DNA of 64,000 nucleotides from a virus. Taxonomy: Duplodnaviria > Caudoviricetes. Shown one piece after another: positions 21,501 to 38,994 of this stretch. Location of the stretch: positions 32,001 through 96,000 of IMG/VR virus record IMGVR_UViG_3300046710_000146; one strand, written 5' to 3'. Made by a program: the position numbers and the translations under genes. The notes under the pieces were generated by a model, which was not told where the DNA came from, did no database searches, and saw nothing but the letters and a program-made list of their open reading frames with translations. The stretch's first letter is position 1. Each line of letters begins with the position of its first letter.

Positions 21501-22292
21501 TCATTGGCGGCAGTTGTCAAAATGCCATCGCCTCATGTTCCCTGCTGTTCCGGTTTTTCCACAATGTGGGCATGTAATCTTTGGCAAGCTTAGCCCCTGT
21601 TCACTGCGCTTCTGCCATGCTGCACGCTGACTCTCTTTATGTTTTTCAGACAGCGGTTTTCCAGTATGCAGTGCAACGAGCCGATCCCGTTGTTCTTGTG
21701 ACAACGGGATCCCCTTGCGGCTTTCAGACATCTTCCTGATTGTCTCGGCTGATCGTGGTTTGCCAGTAAACGCAGCCCTTAGTTTTGCCCGGGTTTCATC
21801 TTTAACCGGGCGACCCATCATGCCAGCGGAAATCTTGGCACACGTTTCAGCAGATGGCAGTGCTTTATTCTTTTGACCTTTACTGAGATTTGCACGCTCT
21901 TGCTCTGATCGTGGGCGACCTTTCTGAGCAGCCCCGATTTTGGCACGGTGCTCCGAGGATTTTGGCCTGCCAGCGACGCAAAAAGCGATACCGCCGGCTG
22001 GGTCAATAAAATGGCGATTGAGACATAGTGGATCTAACCGGTGCCCCTTAATCAGTTGCTGTTCTTCCCAATAGCAGTCTAGTGTTTCTCCAGTCATAAT
22101 GATTTGCCACTCAAATGCCTCGATCCCAAATGCGGAAATATTGCGCTTCATAATAGTGCTGGAGGACTGATAGTGATGTCTAAAATCTTGCTCAGGAGTT
22201 CGCTTCTTACGGATGTTAGCAGACCTGGACCCATAATAGAACTCGCCAGTTTGCTTGTTACGAATACAATATACATATGCCTGAAATGTCAT
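21501..22292 (-). mobile_element. free-standing GIY-YIG (Seg-like) homing endonuclease with NUMOD3 repeats
   Basis: YVYCIRN...FYYGSR, Y.SSS; repeated S.E.RAKIS/G motifs; CPHC..RWHFDNC tail; AGGAG SD and TAAATA upstream. Confidence 0.9.
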
Positions 22293-23995
22293 CAAATACT
22301 CCTAAAGATCAGAACTATTTAGCAAGTTCGTACATTAGTTCAACACACGATTGGGACTCCGACAAGATTCTTGTTTGGGAGCGCCCAATTGGTGGGGGTG
22401 AACGACGCGTCGTAATGCACGATGCCCCACGGTACTTCTACGTGCCGGATGATGAGGGTGAGCATACCGCAATTGATGGGGTGAAGCTCAAGAAGTTCGT
22501 GTTCGATTCGAAAGATGAGTTCACGGCTGAAGCCCGGCGCCATCGCATCAAGTATGAAAGCGATATCCAGCCCGAGGCCCGACTGCTGATGGAGGCGTAC
22601 TACGGGCGCCCAACACCAGTCGTGAACTACGCGTTCCTCGACATCGAGGTTGATTACTCCTCGAAGATTGGTTGGAGCTCGCCAGAGAATCCGTACGCCC
22701 CGATAAACGCGATCACGATCTTCCAGTCATGGACAGGTAAGTACCTGACGTACGCGGTGCCACCAAAAACCTGGAAGGGTGATGAGGCTACGCTGCAGCT
22801 TGAAGTCCAGCGACTCTGGAAAGAGCACAAGCTGGACTTTGTACCCGATGTCACGATCTGTAAGACTGAGCGTGATCTGCTGTTGTATATGCTCGGTGAT
22901 ATCGAGGATGCCGACATAATCAGCGGCTGGAACTCTGAGTTCTTCGACAACCCGTACATCATCAAGCGACTTGAACGAGTCCTTGGTAAGAAGGGTCCAG
23001 GGCACATGTCATTCAAGGGGGCACGACCCCCTGCTGAACGAATCGTGAATCGATTTGGATCGCCCGCGATCACGTTCACTTTGTACGGTAGAACACACCT
23101 TGACTATCTTGATCTCTTCAAGAAGTTCACGTTTGAAGGGCGGGTCTCATACTCACTCGCGAACATCGCGGCTGAGGAGCTTGACGTTCCGAAGCTCGAC
23201 TATCCAGGTACGTTGGAGCAGCTGTACCATAACGACTTCGCACATTTCATCACGTATAACGCCCGCGACGTTGAGGTGCTTGTGCAGCTGGATATGAAGT
23301 TCAAGCTCATGCAGCTTGTGAACCAGATGGCACATGAGAACACCGTGCCGTTCATGGCAATTCTTGGCACCGTCCGATACGTTGAGACTGGGATGATTAA
23401 TCGTGCGCACAACGCGCACAACTTGATCGTGTGCGACAAGAACATGTCGGGCGAGTTGAATGAGAAGGTTGAAGGCGCCGTGGTGATGACACCTCGTGCA
23501 GGTCTATGGGAATGGATTGGTTCAATCGATCTTACCTCGCTGTACCCAAGCACCGCCCGCGCCCTGAACATGTCGATTGAAACCTTCGTTGGGCAGTTCG
23601 TTGATGAAGAGCGTGCATGGGAAGGTATCCGTGCCAGAGATGACAATCCATGGGAGGCCGTGATCTCCCATGAGAGCATCACGGCTACTGGGGCTCAGTG
23701 GTTCGAGTACCTACGAGCCGAGAACTATGCAATCTCTGGGTTCGGCACGATCTTCGATCAGAACAAACCTGGAATCGTTGCGGACACCCTGACATATTGG
23801 TTCAATGAGCGGCTTCGGCTACAGGCCAGTAAGAAAGCCGCGATTGCGGAGGTTAAGACGCTCAAGGCAACCTTGGGTATTCCCGCCCCCGCAGGGCTAC
23901 TTATCAAGGAAATGGCTGATCATGATCCATCATCAAAATTAGACGAAGGACTGTCAATTTATAACGACGACGATGGAATGCCAAATCAACTATGA
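22277..23995 (+). CDS. family B DNA polymerase, N-terminal subunit (gp43A-like: exonuclease, motif A, first finger helix)
   Basis: ExoI DIE, ExoII GWNSEFFD, ExoIII YNARD, motif A DLTSLYPS. Confidence 0.92.
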   Translation: MPEMSSNTPKDQNYLASSYISSTHDWDSDKILVWERPIGGGERRVVMHDAPRYFYVPDDEGEHTAIDGVKLKKFVFDSKDEFTAEARRHRIKYESDIQPEARLLMEAYYGRPTPVVNYAFLDIEVDYSSKIGWSSPENPYAPINAITIFQSWTGKYLTYAVPPKTWKGDEATLQLEVQRLWKEHKLDFVPDVTICKTERDLLLYMLGDIEDADIISGWNSEFFDNPYIIKRLERVLGKKGPGHMSFKGARPPAERIVNRFGSPAITFTLYGRTHLDYLDLFKKFTFEGRVSYSLANIAAEELDVPKLDYPGTLEQLYHNDFAHFITYNARDVEVLVQLDMKFKLMQLVNQMAHENTVPFMAILGTVRYVETGMINRAHNAHNLIVCDKNMSGELNEKVEGAVVMTPRAGLWEWIGSIDLTSLYPSTARALNMSIETFVGQFVDEERAWEGIRARDDNPWEAVISHESITATGAQWFEYLRAENYAISGFGTIFDQNKPGIVADTLTYWFNERLRLQASKKAAIAEVKTLKATLGIPAPAGLLIKEMADHDPSSKLDEGLSIYNDDDGMPNQL

Positions 23996-25356
23996 ACCTC
24001 GCACAAATTAAGAAGCAGTTGAAATCCGGAGATCTGATTCTGGACGGGGGGAAACTGTACACAAAAGAAGAGTGGGAGCAGATCAAAGCAAAGCAAGCTG
24101 AAGCAGATCACTACGATTTGCTTCAGCTCACGAAGAAGATTCAGCTGAACTCGGCATATGGTGCGCTCTTGAATGAAGCCTTCCGTTTCGGTCGTCGCGA
24201 AATCGGTGCGTCAATTACTGGCACTGGTCGCCAGATCACGAAGCACATGGGGCAGACGATTGGGACCCTTGCAACTGGGAACAAATGCACGTTCGAGAAG
24301 CGCTATGGTGACTTCAAGAACAAGAGCACACGCGCTGGGTCGTTTGAATCAGGCGAGCTGTACGGTGAGTGGCTCCAAGCTGAGAACTTCGAAGCGCTCC
24401 GTAATCTGCCGCAAGAGCAGCAATGGACACGGAAGTTCAGCAAGGAAAAGAACGCCGAGGTTGATGTCGGTTCCGGTGCAATATGGTTCACAGAGTGCCC
24501 AGCAATCATCTATGGTGATACTGACTCGTGCTACTTCTTAACGTACGGAACAGACTACGACGAGGCGGTTGCGCTAGCTGATGAGATTGCAACGCAAACG
24601 AACGCGACATTCCCAGCGTTTATGCAAGAGGCATTCAACTGTACAGGCGGTCGAGAGCTGTTGATCAAAGGCGCTCGTGAAGTCGTAGCTGAGCGTGGAC
24701 TGTTCATGCACATTAAGAAGAAGTACACGTTGCGTGTTGTCAATCTCGATGGGTATGATCTGCGGTCAAAGCCGAAGTTGAAGTCCATGGGATCTGAGAT
24801 CAAGAAAGCTGACACGCCAAAGGTGGTGCAGGACTTCTTGAAGGATCTGATGGACCTGGTACTCACCGGTAAACCGTACGCCGCAATGGAGGAGTTCATA
24901 AATGCACATCGTGGATCGTTGATCGGCGACGCGAAGGATGTGCTTGAGCTTGCAACCGCGAAGCAGGTGAACAACTTGGACGCGCTGTACGCTGAGTACA
25001 AGCGCACCGAGAAGATCAATAATGGAAAGATGAAGCACTGCCCAGGTCACGTTCGTTCCGCGATAAACTTCAACGAGATGCTTGAGCTCTTCGATGCAGG
25101 TGGAATGCAACCGCTGAAGGCGGGTGACAAAGCCGCGATTCTGTACTTGAAGGACAACGCATACAGGATCAACTCAATTGGGTTTCCACCTGACATGCAG
25201 CACCTCCCTGACTGGTTCGTCGAGAACTTCGCGGTCGATCTACGAAAGACCGAAGAGAAGATGATCGATAGCAAGGTTTCAGGGATCTTCAAGGCCCTTG
25301 GATATGAGACCCCAACCCTGCAGATGGCGCACCTGAAAAGCTCCTTCACATTCTGA
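23992..25356 (+). CDS. family B DNA polymerase, C-terminal subunit (gp43B-like: motifs B and C, thumb)
   Basis: KIQLNSAYG, YGDTDS, KKKY; ATGA overlap with subunit A. Confidence 0.92.
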   Translation: MNLAQIKKQLKSGDLILDGGKLYTKEEWEQIKAKQAEADHYDLLQLTKKIQLNSAYGALLNEAFRFGRREIGASITGTGRQITKHMGQTIGTLATGNKCTFEKRYGDFKNKSTRAGSFESGELYGEWLQAENFEALRNLPQEQQWTRKFSKEKNAEVDVGSGAIWFTECPAIIYGDTDSCYFLTYGTDYDEAVALADEIATQTNATFPAFMQEAFNCTGGRELLIKGAREVVAERGLFMHIKKKYTLRVVNLDGYDLRSKPKLKSMGSEIKKADTPKVVQDFLKDLMDLVLTGKPYAAMEEFINAHRGSLIGDAKDVLELATAKQVNNLDALYAEYKRTEKINNGKMKHCPGHVRSAINFNEMLELFDAGGMQPLKAGDKAAILYLKDNAYRINSIGFPPDMQHLPDWFVENFAVDLRKTEEKMIDSKVSGIFKALGYETPTLQMAHLKSSFTF

Positions 25357-28359: not shown

Positions 28360-28676
28360 ATATAACGGACCCTAACACTCCAGGTACCCCGTCTTCTCGG
28401 TTCACTCATCTCTTAGGTGAGCTTGATAAGCGGTTCCCAGACAAAAGACCGTTCTCGGCCGATCCCGCCGAGGGTCGATACCTAAACGAGATCGATCGTA
28501 TAATTGCTAAGACTGCCGATAAGCTCGTGCATCAGGTGAAGCTTGATGACTGGGCGCATGTTGTGCGGGTGATGAAGGAATACAAGAAGAAGGTCCATGC
28601 TCGGTACTACCTGCATGTGTCCGAGCTAAAAGAAGGATATCGTGTGAAGATCTTCAAGCGAGCTGCATATGATTGA
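28356..28676 (+). CDS. hypothetical protein
   Basis: ATGA coupling. Confidence 0.6.
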   Translation: MNITDPNTPGTPSSRFTHLLGELDKRFPDKRPFSADPAEGRYLNEIDRIIAKTADKLVHQVKLDDWAHVVRVMKEYKKKVHARYYLHVSELKEGYRVKIFKRAAYD

Positions 28677-29211
28677 TTACGCCCGGCTTGGGCGATCAGT
28701 CGAGCACTACGAGAAGGTTGGGTACACTCACGTTGAGGTGCCTTGGACCGTCACCCAAGCGGTGTCGAATATCACGAAGCCGCCAGGTGCTGGCGAGTAC
28801 TTGATAAACAGCAAGAATAAAGTGCTTGTTGCCTCGGGTGAGCAAGGATTTCTGTACCTCGCCCTAAAGGGGTTCTTGCCACCTGGGAAATTCCAAGCGA
28901 TTACGCCGTGTTTTCGTGATGAGCCATTCGATGTCTCGCACACGAAGTACTTCATGAAGAACGAGCTGATCATCACCGATGATCCGTCTATCGAGATGGT
29001 CAAGAAGATCATAGGCGATGCGTTGGAGTACTTCCATACTGAGCACCCAACGGGGGTGCTGCGCGTAGTTGAAACCGCGGTGGGGTGCGACATCGAGCTG
29101 AATGGCATTGAGCTCGGTTCATATGGGTTACGAAAGACGAGCTTCCTGACCTGGGTGTACGGCACTGGGCTGGCTGAACCCCGATTTACAATGGCGAAGA
29201 ACGCAGCATGA
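28669..29211 (+). CDS. minimal class II aminoacyl-tRNA-synthetase-like catalytic domain
   Basis: Motif 1 GYTHVEVP, motif 2 PCFRDE....H...F.K.E, ELGS, motif 3 GTGLAEPR; no anticodon-binding domain. Confidence 0.75.
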   Translation: MIDYARLGRSVEHYEKVGYTHVEVPWTVTQAVSNITKPPGAGEYLINSKNKVLVASGEQGFLYLALKGFLPPGKFQAITPCFRDEPFDVSHTKYFMKNELIITDDPSIEMVKKIIGDALEYFHTEHPTGVLRVVETAVGCDIELNGIELGSYGLRKTSFLTWVYGTGLAEPRFTMAKNAA

Positions 29212-29390
29212 TTGAAAAAACTAAACTAGAACCCTGCCAAGGGACATGTGAAAAGCACGTCGGAGAAGTATCCGAAGTCGCTGTTTCAGGGTGGGGGACA
29301 TTCTTCTACTGCGAAGAGGCTATTGCAGAAGATAAACGTCGTGGGCTTACCGTTTACAAGGTGCAGAAAAGAGAAGCGCAACATGATTGA
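29208..29390 (+). CDS. small Cys/His (zinc-binding) protein
   Basis: C...C..H...YC..A...D; coupled at both ends. Confidence 0.5.
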   Translation: MIEKTKLEPCQGTCEKHVGEVSEVAVSGWGTFFYCEEAIAEDKRRGLTVYKVQKREAQHD

Positions 29391-29991
29391 GCTAACAGAC
29401 GCGGCTGAGCGGTTCTATAATATGAACCCCCGTGAATATCACAATTACGATCATCACGCCAATGATGTAGTCAGACAAATTTTTACACTCTGTGAAAAGC
29501 CGTCGAATGCACTTGTTCTTGCTGGCGTGTGGCACGACGCCATTTATTTTCCTGGCGCTGATCAAGTTCAGAAGGCGCTGAATGAACACGCCTCGGCAGC
29601 GGCGTTGTTCAGCACGCACAAGACCTTGCGGTCTAAGGTGAAGCAAGCGGATGTGGATCAAGCGATGGTGCTTATCATTGGGACCTGCATCGATGAGCAC
29701 CTATCAGCGCTGCCAAAATCAGGTGATCAAGCGATCTTGATGGACGCGGATCTTGGTGGGTTGGCGGCGCCGTGGCTGCAGTTCATTGATAGTCAGGAAA
29801 AGATCATCCGTGAGAACAATGCCGAGGTGAATGAGACCTCGCTGCGTGCATGCTCCACATTCTTAACTCGGTTGCTGAACTGCCGTCCACATCTGTATCA
29901 CACTGATCTGGCTCGAGAGCTTTATGAAGTCAGGGCCAAAGCGAACATCATTGCATTTGAGGTGCTACATAATGAGCTACCATCTAGCTGA
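29383..29991 (+). CDS. HD-superfamily phosphohydrolase
   Basis: REYHN..H...WHDAIY...NE..SA...DADL. Confidence 0.85.
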   Translation: MIELTDAAERFYNMNPREYHNYDHHANDVVRQIFTLCEKPSNALVLAGVWHDAIYFPGADQVQKALNEHASAAALFSTHKTLRSKVKQADVDQAMVLIIGTCIDEHLSALPKSGDQAILMDADLGGLAAPWLQFIDSQEKIIRENNAEVNETSLRACSTFLTRLLNCRPHLYHTDLARELYEVRAKANIIAFEVLHNELPSS

Positions 29992-30214
29992 AATTGAACG
30001 GGGTGTATTCGGCGAGTTCTCCAAGATCGAGGAGGAGTTCCTCGAGGCGAAGGATGCCCTAGCACAGGAGAACCCGGTGATGGTTCTTCAAGAGCTGAGC
30101 GACATGCTTGGCGCCATTGAGGCGTACACTGCCAGATACAACATCACGCTGATTGATTTGATCATCATGAAGGACGCCACGAAGCGTGCATTTGAGAGCG
30201 GACATCGGTCATGA
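29972..30214 (+). CDS. MazG-like NTP pyrophosphohydrolase
   Basis: KIEEEFLE.KDA.......ELSDM.G = ExxE...ExxD all-alpha motif. Confidence 0.7.
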   Translation: MSYHLAEIERGVFGEFSKIEEEFLEAKDALAQENPVMVLQELSDMLGAIEAYTARYNITLIDLIIMKDATKRAFESGHRS

Positions 30215-36672: not shown

Positions 36673-38994
36673 ATGCGCACTATGACCCGACTTTCCGAAT
36701 CCATTGTTCACATCGAGGATCTTCCAATCGATGAGTTCATCCGCACCCTGCAGAACATGAACACCATGGTCGCACAGGAAAAGTTGGATGGAGCAAATCT
36801 CTGGGTTGGCATTGACGAAGATGGGAAGCTCTTTACCTCTCGTGAAGGCAAGCGTGGTAACGCTGAGCGCCGATACTCTGAAGAAGAGTGGCCAAAGGTT
36901 TCAGCATTTAATCAATTCCGCGCGGCGCAAGCTGCCCTGCAGTCGAAAGAGCAGGAGATTAAGCGCATAATGCGCCCAGGCGACATGGTTGAGGCCGAGG
37001 TGCTGTTCGGGCGGCAGCCTAATAGTGTCACATACGGTGCTGGCGGAAAGAGCTATATCGCCTTCCTGCGCGCCGTGAATGATACGCCTGATACCATCGC
37101 TGACCAGCTCAGCTCGTCGCTGGCGAATCAACAGGCTGATGCGAAGCTAAAGCTCGTTGACACCTCTGATGGTACAGACCTATCGATGCGTGAAACTGAC
37201 GTGTCGTTTCAGTTCATTGCGGCACAACGAATGGACGCCGCAAAGCTCAAGAATGAGTCAGGGGTTGACCCATTGCTCAAGAAACTTCAGACATTCCTGA
37301 AGCAGGATTCAGCCGTCGCTGGATATACAAATCAAATGTTGGCGACGCTTTCATTGAACACCGTCCCAAAGGAAGAGCGCGAAGCTATAAAGCAGGCACG
37401 CATTGAACTTCTTGCGCAGCTCCAAACTGAATACAAACTGCCAATTAAGAACGCGCTGTTGTCAAAGGCGGGCACAAAGTCTGGGTTGGCGGCTGATGAC
37501 ATAACTCCTGACGAGGATGTTGGTATCGAAGGCATTGTGCTTCGGGATCCAAGTACTGGGAAGCAGGTGAAGGTTGTTGATAAGGACATCTTCACCGCGA
37601 TCAATCGCTTCAATCAGTCAATGCGTGGTGAGGTTCAATCAGCGCTGAACAGCACTGACCCGGACGCGCCGCTCGAGAGCCGTGGTGGCTTGCTCGGCGC
37701 GTTGCGCATTGAGATTGCGGCGGCACTTGGTAATCGTGAACTTGCAAAGCCATCAAATGTTCGAAAGCTGCTTGAGCCGCTCAAAGGCGGCTCGCCAGAA
37801 GAGGCGATCAAGAACTTCGCAAAGTCATTGAACATTGATGATTTCGTTGGCGTTAAAAAGAAGATCCTTGCGCTGGCTGCAAACACCGCAAAGAAGCTGA
37901 ATGAGAAGCTCGAGTTCTTCAAGGAGAACAAAGAAAATTACCGTCTAAAGCTCAAGAATGGCAAGGAGATTGGGTTATCAGATGAAACAATCAAGAAGAC
38001 ACTGCTGTCGTTCGCTGAAGCCCGTCGTAATCTAGTTGAGCTGTTCGACAAGTTGAAGCTTGCGAAGACGCCAGCATCGATGCTGGCGGTGCTGTATGGT
38101 AACTCAGCACGTGCTGTGCATCAGACTGAAGGGCTGACTGAAGAGATGCTGCTCGAGAAGCGCCGAGATAGAACTGGCGAGATCAGCACAAGCGATTTCG
38201 AGCGCAAGGATACCTTCCAGCTTGTGAATTCATATATGTCAACGGTCATGATGGCTATGATCATCTACCACGCTGATGATACGATTGGGATGCGATACCT
38301 TCGGGACCGCAAGAACTACTTGATGCGATCGCACAATGACGATATGAGCCCATTGAATCATTGGGGGTTTGTAATTTGGCGGACTGGTAAGCCAGACCTG
38401 AAGAAACATGTGATGAAATCAGCGATCTCGGAGCTCACACGGGTCACGAAGAAGATCCCAACCCCTTGGTGGAAGTACCTGCATATGGACTTTTCATATG
38501 ACAAGAAGGTCAAGGTTGATTGGGGAGACCATAAGCGAACCCTGAACCGCCTTTTGGAACTGTCCGGGCTACGCACTGAACGTCTAAATACTCTACTTGA
38601 TCTGTCTGTCCGATTCGACGAATTGGAGCTGAAAGAGCAGAAACACGCGGTAAAGATGCTGCAGGCATTTGCCTATCGCTTTGTTCCGCGCTCCAGACTG
38701 CTTTCACGGATCAGGGTCATTGCGAACGGCTTGAAAGATGCGAAGGAACCAATTGTGACAGAAGGACTTCTACGGAAAATTGCAGCGCTCTCTGAAGAGG
38801 GTGAGGCTGCCGTCGATGGAACCGAGGTGAACACCACGGTGAACGGCGCGTCAAGCGGTACCGCGGCAGGGGCGATTAGCTCGCTCCCAACCAAAATTTT
38901 TGGCGGCGCGCGTAAAACCGTGATGATGAAACGAAACAAGAATCCACAGTTCGCGCGTGAGCTGTTGAAGTTCAAAGACACACGGAAACCCTAA
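36673..38994 (+). CDS. late multidomain head-interior protein with N-terminal ligase-type nucleotidyltransferase domain
   Basis: QEKLDGAN (motif I), EAEV (III), EGIVL (IV), VKVV (V); xxE sites LSE, LTE, LLE, VTE; TAAATA at 36663. Confidence 0.7.
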   Translation: MRTMTRLSESIVHIEDLPIDEFIRTLQNMNTMVAQEKLDGANLWVGIDEDGKLFTSREGKRGNAERRYSEEEWPKVSAFNQFRAAQAALQSKEQEIKRIMRPGDMVEAEVLFGRQPNSVTYGAGGKSYIAFLRAVNDTPDTIADQLSSSLANQQADAKLKLVDTSDGTDLSMRETDVSFQFIAAQRMDAAKLKNESGVDPLLKKLQTFLKQDSAVAGYTNQMLATLSLNTVPKEEREAIKQARIELLAQLQTEYKLPIKNALLSKAGTKSGLAADDITPDEDVGIEGIVLRDPSTGKQVKVVDKDIFTAINRFNQSMRGEVQSALNSTDPDAPLESRGGLLGALRIEIAAALGNRELAKPSNVRKLLEPLKGGSPEEAIKNFAKSLNIDDFVGVKKKILALAANTAKKLNEKLEFFKENKENYRLKLKNGKEIGLSDETIKKTLLSFAEARRNLVELFDKLKLAKTPASMLAVLYGNSARAVHQTEGLTEEMLLEKRRDRTGEISTSDFERKDTFQLVNSYMSTVMMAMIIYHADDTIGMRYLRDRKNYLMRSHNDDMSPLNHWGFVIWRTGKPDLKKHVMKSAISELTRVTKKIPTPWWKYLHMDFSYDKKVKVDWGDHKRTLNRLLELSGLRTERLNTLLDLSVRFDELELKEQKHAVKMLQAFAYRFVPRSRLLSRIRVIANGLKDAKEPIVTEGLLRKIAALSEEGEAAVDGTEVNTTVNGASSGTAAGAISSLPTKIFGGARKTVMMKRNKNPQFARELLKFKDTRKP

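What the first reader, a model, noticed from the sequence alone, without database searches (positions are those of the whole stretch)
28669..30214. Minimal class II aaRS-like ligase + HD hydrolase + MazG-like pyrophosphatase: candidate new nucleotide-modification or alarmone module in the replication block
Seen: four overlapping ORFs encode a 180-aa class II aaRS catalytic core (motifs 1-3, no anticodon-binding domain), a small Zn-binding protein, an HD phosphohydrolase and an ExxE/ExxD MazG-like protein. They sit between polymerase/RNase H and primase/helicase. Established: truncated aaRS-II paralogues (EpmA, AsnA) ligate amino acids or ammonia to non-tRNA substrates. Class II enzymes such as LysU make Ap4A and the HD protein YqeK hydrolyses it. 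The 2-aminoadenine pathway uses a ligase + HD + MazG trio (PurZ, DatZ, MazZ). Inference: this cluster has similar logic with a different ligase. It could make a non-canonical nucleotide and purge the canonical pool, or make and destroy a dinucleotide signal against host defence.
Basis: partly seen in the sequence, partly recalled or inferred. Interest (0 to 1): 0.8.

Follow-up and report, generated by a model that had tools for sequence, protein, structure and literature searches.

The report
Mini seryl-synthetase core with pyrophosphatase partner
This peat phage carries a stripped-down, apparently active seryl-tRNA-synthetase core and a small HisE/MazG-type pyrophosphatase that travel together (sometimes fused) in over a thousand phage lineages and have no known job, whereas the HD hydrolase and the small cysteine-containing ORF between them are local add-ons.

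Summary
The four tightly packed + strand ORFs exist as described. Three calls hold. The 180-aa protein is a complete class II synthetase catalytic core, closest to SerRS. The 202-aa protein belongs to the HD superfamily. The 80-aa protein is HisE/MazG-like. The "Zn-binding" 60-aa ORF is an orphan with no support.

The trio is not a conserved system. The conserved unit is the synthetase core plus the MazG-like protein:
- They are adjacent in 67 of 70 loci.
- They are fused in Microcystis phages and in 7 of 150 representative clusters.
- They show matching tallies in 276 and 259 isolated phage genomes.

The HD gene lies between them only in this clade (3 loci). HD relatives elsewhere lack the pair.

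Catalytic and serine-binding positions of SerRS are invariant, while the tRNA-binding arm is absent. Unrelated lineages place the pair beside tRNA arrays, CCA-adding enzyme, RlaP, RNA ligase, a HAD RNA-repair phosphatase or a YqeY domain.

My best guess (about 0.35) is a two-part, serine-activating enzyme that acts on tRNA/RNA 3' ends. A PurZ-like DNA-base pathway is unlikely.

I found no published study of the pair. This scan has noted the same pair before on other DNA (53 findings in at least 47 genomes).

The parts
28669..29211 (+). Mini class II aminoacyl-tRNA-synthetase catalytic core (SerRS-like, 180 aa). It is one half of the conserved pair.
   Evidence: PHROG 4806, E 1e-39. AF2 pLDDT 92. 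mt-SerRS Z 19.3 with 178 residues aligned. Foldseek PylRS/SerRS. Motifs 2 and 3 and the SerRS-equivalent positions are invariant. More than 1,500 representative clusters.
29208..29390 (+). 60-aa orphan ORF (3 Cys, 1 His). It is not part of the conserved module, and whether it is coding is unproven.
   Evidence: No family hit. No homologue in 70 loci. It is replaced by a gp5.9-like gene in the 83%-identical relative L005.
29383..29991 (+). HD-superfamily metal-dependent phosphohydrolase (202 aa). It is a clade-specific insert between the two halves of the pair.
   Evidence: PHROG 19425, E 1e-15. H...HD...D is invariant in 14 homologues. Atlas clusters include one named 'Metal-dependent HD superfamily phosphohydrolase'. 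It is linked to the pair only in WIN, L005 and L007.
29972..30214 (+). HisE/MazG-like all-alpha NTP pyrophosphohydrolase-type protein (80 aa). It is the other half of the conserved pair.
   Evidence: PHROG 6408, E 2e-26. Invariant K18, E21 E22 E25, E41 D44 and N-terminal Y3 H4. AF2 pLDDT 93, three helices. Best fold hits are HisE, MazG and iMazG. It lies adjacent to the synthetase core in 67 of 70 loci and is fused to it in MaMV-DC and 7 representative clusters.

Best explanation
The functional unit is a two-part enzyme, not a trio. It consists of a 180-aa SerRS-derived catalytic core and an 80-aa HisE/MazG-type pyrophosphohydrolase, encoded as coupled neighbours or as one fused polypeptide.

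Inferred mechanism:
- The core binds ATP and L-serine (or a similar small amino acid) and forms an aminoacyl-adenylate.
- It lacks the SerRS coiled-coil arm and has a motif-2 loop shorter by 7 residues, so it cannot pick tRNA-Ser in the canonical way.
- The partner keeps the metal-binding glutamates and aspartate of enzymes that cut the alpha-beta pyrophosphate bond of a nucleotide.
- I think the pair most likely works on the nucleotide 3' end of tRNA or RNA, either unblocking it or re-charging it. It would then be part of the RNA-maintenance and counter-defence toolkit of large phages.

In this clade an HD phosphoesterase has been slotted between the two genes as an accessory. This may parallel the HAD RNA-repair phosphatase, RlaP or CCA-enzyme genes placed beside the pair in other lineages. 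The 60-aa ORF is unrelated filler.

What is shown: the fold, the conserved residues, the pairing and fusion, and the neighbours. What is inferred: serine activation, physical coupling of the two proteins, the RNA-end target, and the role of the HD protein.

My odds by layer: about 0.9 that the pair (not the trio) is the unit, about 0.55 for serine activation, and about 0.35 for the RNA/tRNA-end role.
For: Pairing:
- The MazG-like gene is on the same strand next to the core in 67 of 70 loci, mostly with overlapping stop and start, in either order.
- Tallies are 276 versus 259 phage records with matching genus counts.
- Fusions occur in MaMV-DC and in 7 of 150 representative clusters scattered over the tree.

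Active core:
- S56-x-E58, R83, F95, K97, E99, E148, S151, T166 and R172 are invariant.
- These align to E. coli SerRS T237-x-E239, R268, F287, K289, E291, E355, S358, S391 and R397.
- The best structural match is SerRS (Z 19.3, 20-23% identity).

Partner:
- The EExxE/ExxD residues are invariant.
- HisE and MazG are the best fold hits.

RNA-end context in unrelated lineages:
- The pair lies inside a tRNA array in CcrBL9.
- tRNA genes lie within 8 kb in 30 of 69 loci.
- All 20 long records tested carry tRNAs.
- RlaP occurs in 7 loci and RNA ligase in 9.
- RlaP and HAD_SAK_2 were confirmed by Pfam.
- In phage W70 the order is CCA-adding enzyme ... RlaP - x - MazG-like - core. In VEcB the order is MazG-like - core - YqeY.

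Literature: a 2022 paper lists a MazG-superfamily pyrophosphatase in rV5-type phage RNA-repair neighbourhoods (PMC9503650).
Against: - Neither protein has an RNA-binding domain, and both families are acidic (median pI 5.6 and 5.2).
- The motif-2 loop that SerRS uses on the acceptor stem is shortened.
- No known chemistry explains why an NTP pyrophosphohydrolase should be obligatorily coupled to a synthetase core on an RNA end.
- In this window the pair sits in the replication block. The 114-kb record has no tRNA gene and no RlaP, although the record is estimated at only 32% complete.
- Neighbours such as Nampt and NMNAT-Nudix point equally to nucleotide metabolism.
- Gene proximity may only reflect a shared 'auxiliary gene' region in large phages. 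Many of the 70 loci are related, so the counts are not independent.
- The residue roles in SerRS come from my recollection of the T. thermophilus structures and were not checked with a tool.
Confidence: 0.35

Rival explanations
1. Free-nucleotide chemistry. The pair makes or processes a small amino-acid-nucleotide conjugate. For example, the MazG-like half converts an NTP to an NMP, which the core then serylates, or it trims a serylated NTP. The HD protein acts on the same pool.
For: Known substrates of the partner's superfamily are free nucleotides (HisE and MazG hits). The proteins are fused. Both are small and acidic with no RNA-binding domain. An HD hydrolase is inserted here. Nampt and NMNAT-Nudix are neighbours in 10-12 loci.
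Against: I know of no truncated class II paralogue that loads a free nucleotide. The recurrent tRNA-end neighbours would be unexplained. No product is predictable from sequence.
Confidence: 0.2
2. Dinucleotide-polyphosphate module. With no tRNA to accept the amino acid, the core turns seryl-adenylate plus ATP into Ap4A-type compounds. The MazG-like protein (and here the HD protein) degrades or shapes them, as a signal or RNA-cap system.
For: SerRS is among the synthetases known to make Ap4A from the adenylate (established knowledge, not tested here). The ATP-binding and adenylate-forming residues are intact and no tRNA arm is present.
Against: A strictly coupled or fused maker and destroyer would be a futile cycle. 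As far as I know, MazG/HisE enzymes are not known as Ap4A hydrolases. The HD protein gave no NCBIfam match that would tie it to YqeK and is absent from almost all loci with the pair.
Confidence: 0.1
3. A real, minimal seryl-tRNA synthetase. It charges host or phage tRNA-Ser (or another tRNA) during infection, with tRNA binding supplied in trans.
For: Serine-site and catalytic residues are conserved. The carriers are tRNA-rich phages. A YqeY tRNA-binding-type domain is encoded next door in phi92-like phages.
Against: The coiled-coil arm that SerRS needs for tRNA-Ser is missing. The serS equivalog model gives no hit. The motif-2 loop is shortened. The obligatory MazG-like partner has no role in plain aminoacylation.
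Confidence: 0.08
4. One reading: a ligase + HD + MazG trio that builds a non-canonical DNA base and purges the canonical dNTP, analogous to PurZ/DatZ/MazZ.
For: The three enzyme types are adjacent here and lie inside the replication block. The trio is kept in two relatives (L005 and L007).
Against: HD is absent from 64 of the 67 loci that show both halves of the pair. HD relatives elsewhere lack the pair. There is no PurZ-like gene. The pair occurs across phage groups with unrelated DNA chemistries. The core resembles SerRS, not a purine or pyrimidine enzyme.
Confidence: 0.04
5. Non-catalytic use. The core is a HisZ-like sensor or sponge that binds an amino acid or an amino-acid-adenylate-like immune signal and regulates or presents it to the MazG-like enzyme.
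For: HisZ and HisRS chains are among the best structural matches (Z 16.6-18.4). The partner's best hits are HisE.
Against: The motif-2 and motif-3 arginines and the metal-binding glutamate are invariant over 44 sequences that share only 51-83% identity with the window's protein. That fits catalysis better than mere binding. Identity to HisZ/HisRS is only 10-13%, against 20-23% to SerRS.
Confidence: 0.05

Closest known systems
Seryl-tRNA synthetase (class IIa) catalytic domain
   Same: It is the best structural match (human mt-SerRS Z 19.3, 178 of 180 residues; other SerRS chains Z about 17 at 20-23% identity). TPCFR-E, the T/S-x-E loop, F-x-K-x-E, E-x-x-S and G-[ST]-G-L-A-x-x-R line up with E. 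coli SerRS.
   Different: It has no N-terminal coiled-coil tRNA arm and is about 70 residues shorter within the core (178 model residues align across residues 235-467 of mt-SerRS). The motif-2 loop is shorter by 7 residues. The serS model TIGR00414 gives no hit. It is always coupled to a MazG-like protein.
Amino acid:[carrier protein] ligases (Bll0957/Atu2573 type, SerRS-like paralogues)
   Same: These are also truncated SerRS-type cores without the tRNA arm, encoded next to a small helical partner of about 80 aa. The structural match is Z 15.2 (3mey).
   Different: The partner here is HisE/MazG-like, with invariant metal-binding acidic residues and no phosphopantetheine carrier signature. The match is weaker than to SerRS itself. 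The family looks phage-restricted in my searches.
Other class II paralogues with non-tRNA functions: HisZ, AsnA, EpmA (GenX/PoxA)
   Same: They share the catalytic fold reused outside translation (HisZ Z 13.5-17.6, AsnA 12.8-13.5, EpmA 13.3).
   Different: Sequence identity is lower (10-16%). These proteins are about 275-380 residues long as solved. None is known to pair with an NTP pyrophosphohydrolase.
All-alpha NTP pyrophosphohydrolases: HisE (PRA-PH), MazG, iMazG, DCTPP1
   Same: The 80-aa partner has the EExxE...ExxD signature. Its best fold and profile hits all lie in this superfamily.
   Different: It has only three helices. It carries an invariant N-terminal G-Y-H arm not described for the superfamily. 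It scores below the Pfam cut-offs. It is obligatorily linked to a synthetase core.
PurZ-DatZ-MazZ 2-aminoadenine pathway of phages
   Same: It also combines a ligase, an HD hydrolase and a MazG-type enzyme in phage replication regions.
   Different: The ligase is of a different superfamily. The HD gene is not conserved with the pair. No PurZ is present. The phage distribution does not track any DNA modification.
Phage RNA-repair and tRNA-end toolkits (RlaP, CCA-adding enzyme, RNA ligase, HAD 'Swiss-army-knife' phosphatase; Iyer et al. 2021 PMC7824862; Iyer et al. 2022 PMC9503650)
   Same: The pair is repeatedly encoded beside these genes. A MazG-superfamily pyrophosphatase is listed in one such neighbourhood.
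   Different: Neither paper mentions the synthetase core in the passages searched. This window's copy sits in the replication block without those neighbours.

Membership tests
Class II aaRS catalytic-core superfamily | Antiparallel beta-sheet catalytic fold | tested here: met
   Foldseek gave 500 or more PDB hits, all class II aaRS in the rows shown; PylRS/SerRS E about 1e-9. VIA-align gave Z 12.6-19.3 for the 50 listed chains (class II aaRS cores and class II paralogues), spanning residues 1-180.
Class II aaRS catalytic-core superfamily | Motif 2 (fRxE) and motif 3 (GxGxGxxR) with their arginines | tested here: met
   R83 and R172 are invariant. Position 85 is E or D. TPCFRDE and GTGLAEPR align to SerRS and PheRS motifs.
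Class II aaRS catalytic-core superfamily | Motif 1 / homodimer interface | tested here: inconclusive
   E23-x-P25-W26 is invariant at the expected place. Dimerisation was not tested.
Seryl-tRNA synthetase proper | Scores as SerRS with the curated equivalog model (TIGR00414) | tested here: not met
   No match at E <= 0.001 in the record, while all 14 control genomes ring. NCBIfam lists only a weak pheS hit.
Seryl-tRNA synthetase proper | N-terminal coiled-coil arm that binds the tRNA-Ser variable arm | tested here: not met
   The protein starts at the catalytic core. Model residues 1-180 align to residues 235-467 of mt-SerRS.
Seryl-tRNA synthetase proper | Serine-site residues (T-x-E loop, Glu after motif 2, Ser after the metal Glu, Thr/Ser before motif 3) | tested here: met
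   S56-x-E58, E99, S151 and T166 are invariant and align to E. coli T237-x-E239, E291, S358 and S391. The roles of these residues come from memory of the T. thermophilus structures.
Seryl-tRNA synthetase proper | Serylation of tRNA-Ser | not testable with these tools
   Needs an aminoacylation assay.
Amino acid:[carrier protein] ligase system | Adjacent phosphopantetheine carrier protein as acceptor | tested here: not met
   The adjacent 80-aa protein matches HisE/MazG, not carrier proteins. Its acidic metal-binding motif is invariant.
All-alpha NTP pyrophosphohydrolase superfamily (MazG/HisE) | EExxE ... ExxD metal-binding motifs on two helices | tested here: met
   E21 E22 E25 and E41 D44 are invariant in 35 sequences. 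They lie on helices 16-31 and 35-56 of the model.
All-alpha NTP pyrophosphohydrolase superfamily (MazG/HisE) | Fold match to solved members | tested here: inconclusive
   The ten best Foldseek hits are HisE, MazG or a MazG-related protein (probability 0.69-0.99, TM 0.52-0.63), but with E 0.5-2. Profile hits to 1vmg, 1yvw and 2a7w have E 0.3-1.
All-alpha NTP pyrophosphohydrolase superfamily (MazG/HisE) | Pfam gathering score (PRA-PH / MazG) | tested here: not met
   PRA-PH scores 14.7 bits against a cut-off of 21.3, and 18.7 bits in the fused P0191.
HD phosphohydrolase superfamily | H ... HD ... D metal-binding residues | tested here: met
   H20, H25, H51-D52 and D121/D123 are invariant in 14 homologues.
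HD phosphohydrolase superfamily | Pfam HD (PF01966) or a characterised subfamily (YqeK, DatZ, SpoT-type) | tested here: not met
   No Pfam or relevant NCBIfam hit. The only PDB profile hit is 2pq7, 'predicted HD hydrolase', at E 0.019. PHROG and the Atlas support only the superfamily.
PurZ-DatZ-MazZ type base-replacement pathway | PurZ (adenylosuccinate-synthetase-like) gene present | tested here: not met
   PF00709 gives no hit in the 114-kb record, while all controls ring. The record is a fragment.
PurZ-DatZ-MazZ type base-replacement pathway | The three genes co-occur across related phages | tested here: not met
   HD lies beside the pair in 3 of 70 loci. None of 21 HD loci have the pair nearby. 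None of 12 HD-bearing records have the core (with positive control).

The most novel reading that the evidence does not exclude
The mini-SerRS core and its HisE/MazG-like partner form one phage-specific enzyme. It uses seryl-adenylate chemistry on the terminal nucleotide of tRNA/RNA, or on a nucleotide, without any canonical tRNA-recognition element. This would be a new way for phages to unblock, shield or re-arm tRNA 3' ends against bacterial tRNA-targeting immunity. It would also be the smallest natural, active class II synthetase core.
Probability: 0.15. Interest if true: 0.85.

Novelty: new variant of a known kind. Interest (0 to 1): 0.55.

Why it matters
- Scale: a 180-residue protein that keeps every catalytic and serine-site residue of SerRS would be about the smallest natural class II synthetase core I know of. 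It belongs to a family of more than 1,500 representative clusters that in my searches looks phage-restricted.
- Unknown chemistry: its strict coupling, and repeated fusion, to a HisE/MazG-type pyrophosphohydrolase points to chemistry that no studied synthetase paralogue performs.
- Annotation: databases name these proteins inconsistently as histidyl- or seryl-tRNA synthetase, RNA polymerase alpha CTD or hypothetical.
- Testability: the pair occurs in easily handled coliphages (rV5-like, phi92-like), so the question can be tested directly. The answer bears on how large phages keep translation running under tRNA-directed defence, and on how small a synthetase active site can be.
- For this window: the practical result is a correction. 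The unit is a pair, not a trio, and a DNA-base pathway is unlikely.

Tried and rejected
- Complex prediction of the core (A1) with the partner (A2) returned 'no answer/no support'. I draw no conclusion from it.
- The look-up of sequencing runs listed no RNA holder. The only full holder is a peat metagenome that may be the source sample.
The contexts of HD homologues P0125, P0127 and P0130 were therefore checked through IMG/VR loci instead.
- Megablast of the region and tblastn of the HD protein against isolated phages found nothing. tblastn of the core against plasmids found nothing. PADLOC had no hit for any of the four proteins.
- A 'longer proteins' search for fusions found only P0121 (443 aa), whose C-terminal 265 residues match nothing.
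- The genome-contig scan found 2 MAG contigs only. It used narrow peptide patterns, so it does not exclude cellular homologues. Earlier notes of this scan claim CPR and DPANN members; I did not test that.
- Subclass assignment by sequence alone was ambiguous. Pfam tRNA-synt_2 and 2d, NCBIfam pheS, and PDB profile hits to PheRS-alpha and SerRS were all below threshold. I settled on SerRS from the VIA-align ranking and identities and the motif alignments.
- tRNA proximity as a statistic was dropped as a formal test. The tested carrier records hold 1-67 tRNAs, often dispersed, and the loci are related.
- Literature searches found no study of the pair.
Full report
**What is in the window**

Between 28356 and 30471 the + strand carries a run of ORFs whose stops and starts overlap by 4-20 nt. 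Four of them make up the finding:
- 28669-29211 (180 aa).
- 29208-29390 (60 aa).
- 29383-29991 (202 aa, counted from the ATG at which all homologues start).
- 29972-30214 (80 aa, counted from the ATG that gives the family's N-terminal M-[GS]-Y-H).

Upstream lie a family B DNA polymerase split into two ORFs, a clamp-like protein and a 5'-3' exonuclease. Downstream lie a primase and a DnaB-like helicase. The window is part of a 113,862-base IMG/VR viral record judged about 32% complete. A peat metagenome is its likely source. The record contains no tRNA gene.

**The 180-aa protein**

It matches PHROG 4806 (labelled 'histidyl tRNA synthetase') at E 1e-39. It matches Pfam class II synthetase models only below threshold. 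An AlphaFold2 model built on 44 homologues has pLDDT 92.
- Foldseek finds only class II synthetases, with PylRS and SerRS first (E about 1e-9, TM 0.66-0.75).
- The Foldseek-independent VIA-align search ranks human mitochondrial SerRS first (Z 19.3, rmsd 2.6, 178 of 180 residues, 20% identity).
- HisRS/HisZ follow (Z 16.6-18.4 among the top rows, 10-13% identity), then further SerRS chains (Z about 17, 20-23% identity) and PylRS (16.9).
- The carrier-protein ligase Bll0957 scores 15.2, and AsnA and EpmA about 13.

A profile-profile alignment with E. coli SerRS pairs three segments: VLVASGEQ with ALIPTAEV, TPCFRDE with TPCFRSE, and YFMKNE with QFDKVE. In the C-terminal half, E148-x-x-S151 and G-T166-G-L-A-E-P-R172 match E355-x-x-S358 and G-S391-G-L-A-V-G-R397. 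All of these positions are invariant in the family alignment; position 85 is E or D.

From my recollection of the T. thermophilus SerRS structures (offset 10-12 residues from E. coli), these positions are:
- the motif-2 and motif-3 arginines;
- the adenine-stacking Phe;
- the metal-binding Glu;
- the residues that hold the amino and hydroxyl groups of serine.

That assignment is knowledge, not a tool result. The spacing of the remembered residue numbers agrees with the E. coli sequence read.

So the protein is a complete, probably active, SerRS-derived catalytic core. It lacks the N-terminal coiled-coil arm. Its motif-2 loop is 7 residues shorter than in E. coli SerRS. It does not score with the curated serS model. 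It is not a SerRS in the membership sense.

**The 80-aa protein**

It matches PHROG 6408 at E 2e-26 and Pfam PRA-PH only at E 0.04. In 35 homologues K18, E21, E22, E25, E41 and D44 are invariant. This is the EExxE...ExxD signature of the all-alpha NTP pyrophosphohydrolases. Y3 and H4 in an unstructured N-terminal arm are also invariant.

The model (pLDDT 93) has three helices. Its ten best Foldseek hits are all HisE, MazG or a MazG-related protein, with iMazG and DCTPP1 close behind. E-values stay at 0.5-2, as expected for so small a helical protein. I accept 'HisE/MazG-like' as the best reading, with fold membership formally inconclusive.

**The HD protein and the 60-aa ORF**

The 202-aa protein matches PHROG 19425 ('phosphohydrolase', E 1e-15) but has no Pfam HD hit. 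It has only 13 homologues besides itself in the 5.8-billion-protein collection. Some of those are named 'predicted metal-dependent HD superfamily phosphohydrolase', and the H...HD...D residues are invariant. Atlas feature and structure neighbours include clusters named as HD-family proteins of Pseudomonadota, besides unnamed clusters and phage clusters. It could not be tied to any characterised subfamily.

The 60-aa ORF has three Cys and one His and no detectable relative anywhere. In the contig with the 83%-identical core (L005), the same slot holds a T7 gp5.9-like RecBCD-inhibitor gene. In L007 the slot does not exist. 'Zn-binding protein' is unsupported.

**What is conserved: a pair, not a trio**

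The core family is large: 906 proteins by word-indexed search and 1,584 representative clusters by exhaustive HMMER. Its nearest Atlas clusters are 91-100% viral. A pattern-limited scan of 185,579 species genomes found only two MAG contigs.

- In isolated phages, the core is found in 276 records and the MazG-like protein in 259, with matching tallies: Escherichia 112/112, Acinetobacter 61/59, Caulobacter 13/13, Cronobacter 8/8.
- I examined 70 loci: the window, 9 from databases and 60 IMG/VR contigs. The MazG-like gene lies on the same strand next to the core in 67 of them. It is usually downstream with overlapping stop and start, and sometimes directly upstream.
- The three exceptions are two contigs that end just after the core and Acj61, where I found no MazG-like gene. 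In a related Acinetobacter phage (vB_AbaS-Bhz15) it lies about 400 bases upstream of the core.
- In Microcystis phage MaMV-DC the two are one 266-aa polypeptide.
- Seven of the 150 best representative clusters are full-length fusions of the same order. They fall in six separate places on a weakly supported tree.

By contrast, the HD gene is present only in the window, L005 and L007, always between the two.
- In other lineages, whatever sits between the pair is heterogeneous and unrelated.
- 19 IMG/VR loci and two other contigs with HD relatives have neither partner within 5 kb.
- 12 HD-bearing viral records, four of them at least 99% complete, lack the core altogether. The same search finds the core in 4 of 4 positive controls.

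**Clues to function**

Beyond the pair, no neighbour is shared by more than 15 of 70 loci. The recurring neighbours nevertheless have a theme.
- In Caulobacter phage CcrBL9 the pair lies inside a tRNA gene array.
- 30 of 69 loci have tRNA genes within 8 kb. All 20 long carrier records tested have tRNAs, between 1 and 67.
- RlaP, the RNA-ligase-associated Pol-beta nucleotidyltransferase, occurs in 7 loci and RNA ligase in 9.
- Pfam confirms RlaP beside the pair in a Vibrio phage. It also confirms a 'Swiss-army-knife' HAD RNA-repair phosphatase directly after the pair in L009.
- In the rV5-like coliphage W70 the order is CCA-adding enzyme (PolyA_pol + HD) ... RlaP - one ORF - MazG-like - core.
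- In the phi92-like phage VEcB the order is MazG-like - core - YqeY. The YqeY domain is GatB-tail-like and known elsewhere to add tRNA affinity.
- Iyer et al. 2022 list a MazG-superfamily pyrophosphatase in the rV5-type sirtuin/tRNA-ligase RNA-repair neighbourhood, without mentioning a synthetase (PMC9503650). I did not establish whether that MazG is this family.

Nampt and NMNAT-Nudix genes also recur, in 10-12 loci. A nucleotide-metabolism reading therefore cannot be dismissed. Both families are acidic and have no RNA-binding domain.

**Most likely mechanism and its status**

Shown:
- an intact class II active site of SerRS type without tRNA-recognition elements;
- a partner with the metal site of alpha-beta pyrophosphohydrolases;
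- obligate genetic coupling, including fusion;
- repeated placement beside tRNA-end enzymes.

Inferred:
- The core makes seryl-adenylate.
- The two proteins act as one enzyme.
- The target is the 3'-terminal nucleotide of tRNA/RNA, as part of phage RNA maintenance against tRNA-directed defence.
- The clade-specific HD protein is an accessory phosphoesterase. It is comparable in position to the HAD, RlaP or CCA+HD genes of other lineages.

I put about 0.9 on 'the pair is the unit', about 0.55 on serine activation and about 0.35 on the RNA-end role. Rivals, with my odds:
- chemistry on free nucleotides (0.2);
- Ap4A-type synthesis (0.1);
- a real minimal SerRS helped in trans (0.08);
- a HisZ-like sensor (0.05);

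The last is weakened by the unlinked HD gene, by the absence of a PurZ-like gene, and by the pair's presence in phage groups with unrelated DNA chemistries.

**Novelty and prior notes**

I found no paper that describes the pair. Genome papers simply call the core 'SerRS' and treat MazG genes separately (for example PMC8953757).

Earlier agents of this scan have reported the same pair on other DNA: 53 findings in at least 47 genomes. They drew the same main conclusions. Their leads to RlaP, YqeY and the 2022 paper were checked here. Their claim of CPR and DPANN members was not.

I class the finding as a new variant of a known kind: a class II synthetase paralogue with a non-canonical partner. 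It is real and untested, and it is less exotic than the three-enzyme pathway first proposed.

Noticed in passing
window 22277-25356 (+): The family B DNA polymerase is split into two ORFs that overlap by 4 nt: an exonuclease plus N-terminal polymerase part (572 aa) and a C-terminal polymerase part (454 aa).
   Followed up: no
window 36673-38994 (+): A 773-aa protein shows a weak N-terminal RNA-ligase-type match (Pfam RNA_ligase E 6e-5, below cut-off; PHROG 548 E 6e-4). It is followed by a 765-aa protein with no match. This is the only RNA-repair-flavoured gene I saw near the pair in this window.
   Followed up: partly
L005 1523-1729: In the closest relative (core 83% identical), a T7 gp5.9-like RecBCD-inhibitor gene occupies the slot of the window's 60-aa ORF. 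The slot seems to accept unrelated small genes.
   Followed up: partly
L035, about 5 kb downstream of the pair: ARAGORN calls a tRNA with a CUA anticodon ('tRNA-Pyl') within a small tRNA cluster. This is a possible amber suppressor in that phage.
   Followed up: no
P0121 (443 aa, from a 322-kb contig): The core is fused to about 265 C-terminal residues that match no Pfam or NCBIfam family. This could be a different partner or a gene-calling merge.
   Followed up: partly
L095 (Escherichia phage W70) 5743-6246: In this rV5-like phage the MazG-like module is the C-terminal half of a 167-aa protein. Its N-terminal 85 residues or so have no family match.
   Followed up: no
L013 5386-5625 and 5849-6088: Two MazG-like genes follow one core gene, a local duplication of the partner.
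   Followed up: no
L029/L030 8536-9102: A 188-aa protein of PHROG 4784 (function unknown) lies between the core and the MazG-like gene in these jumbo-phage contigs, in the position the HD gene has in the window.
   Followed up: partly
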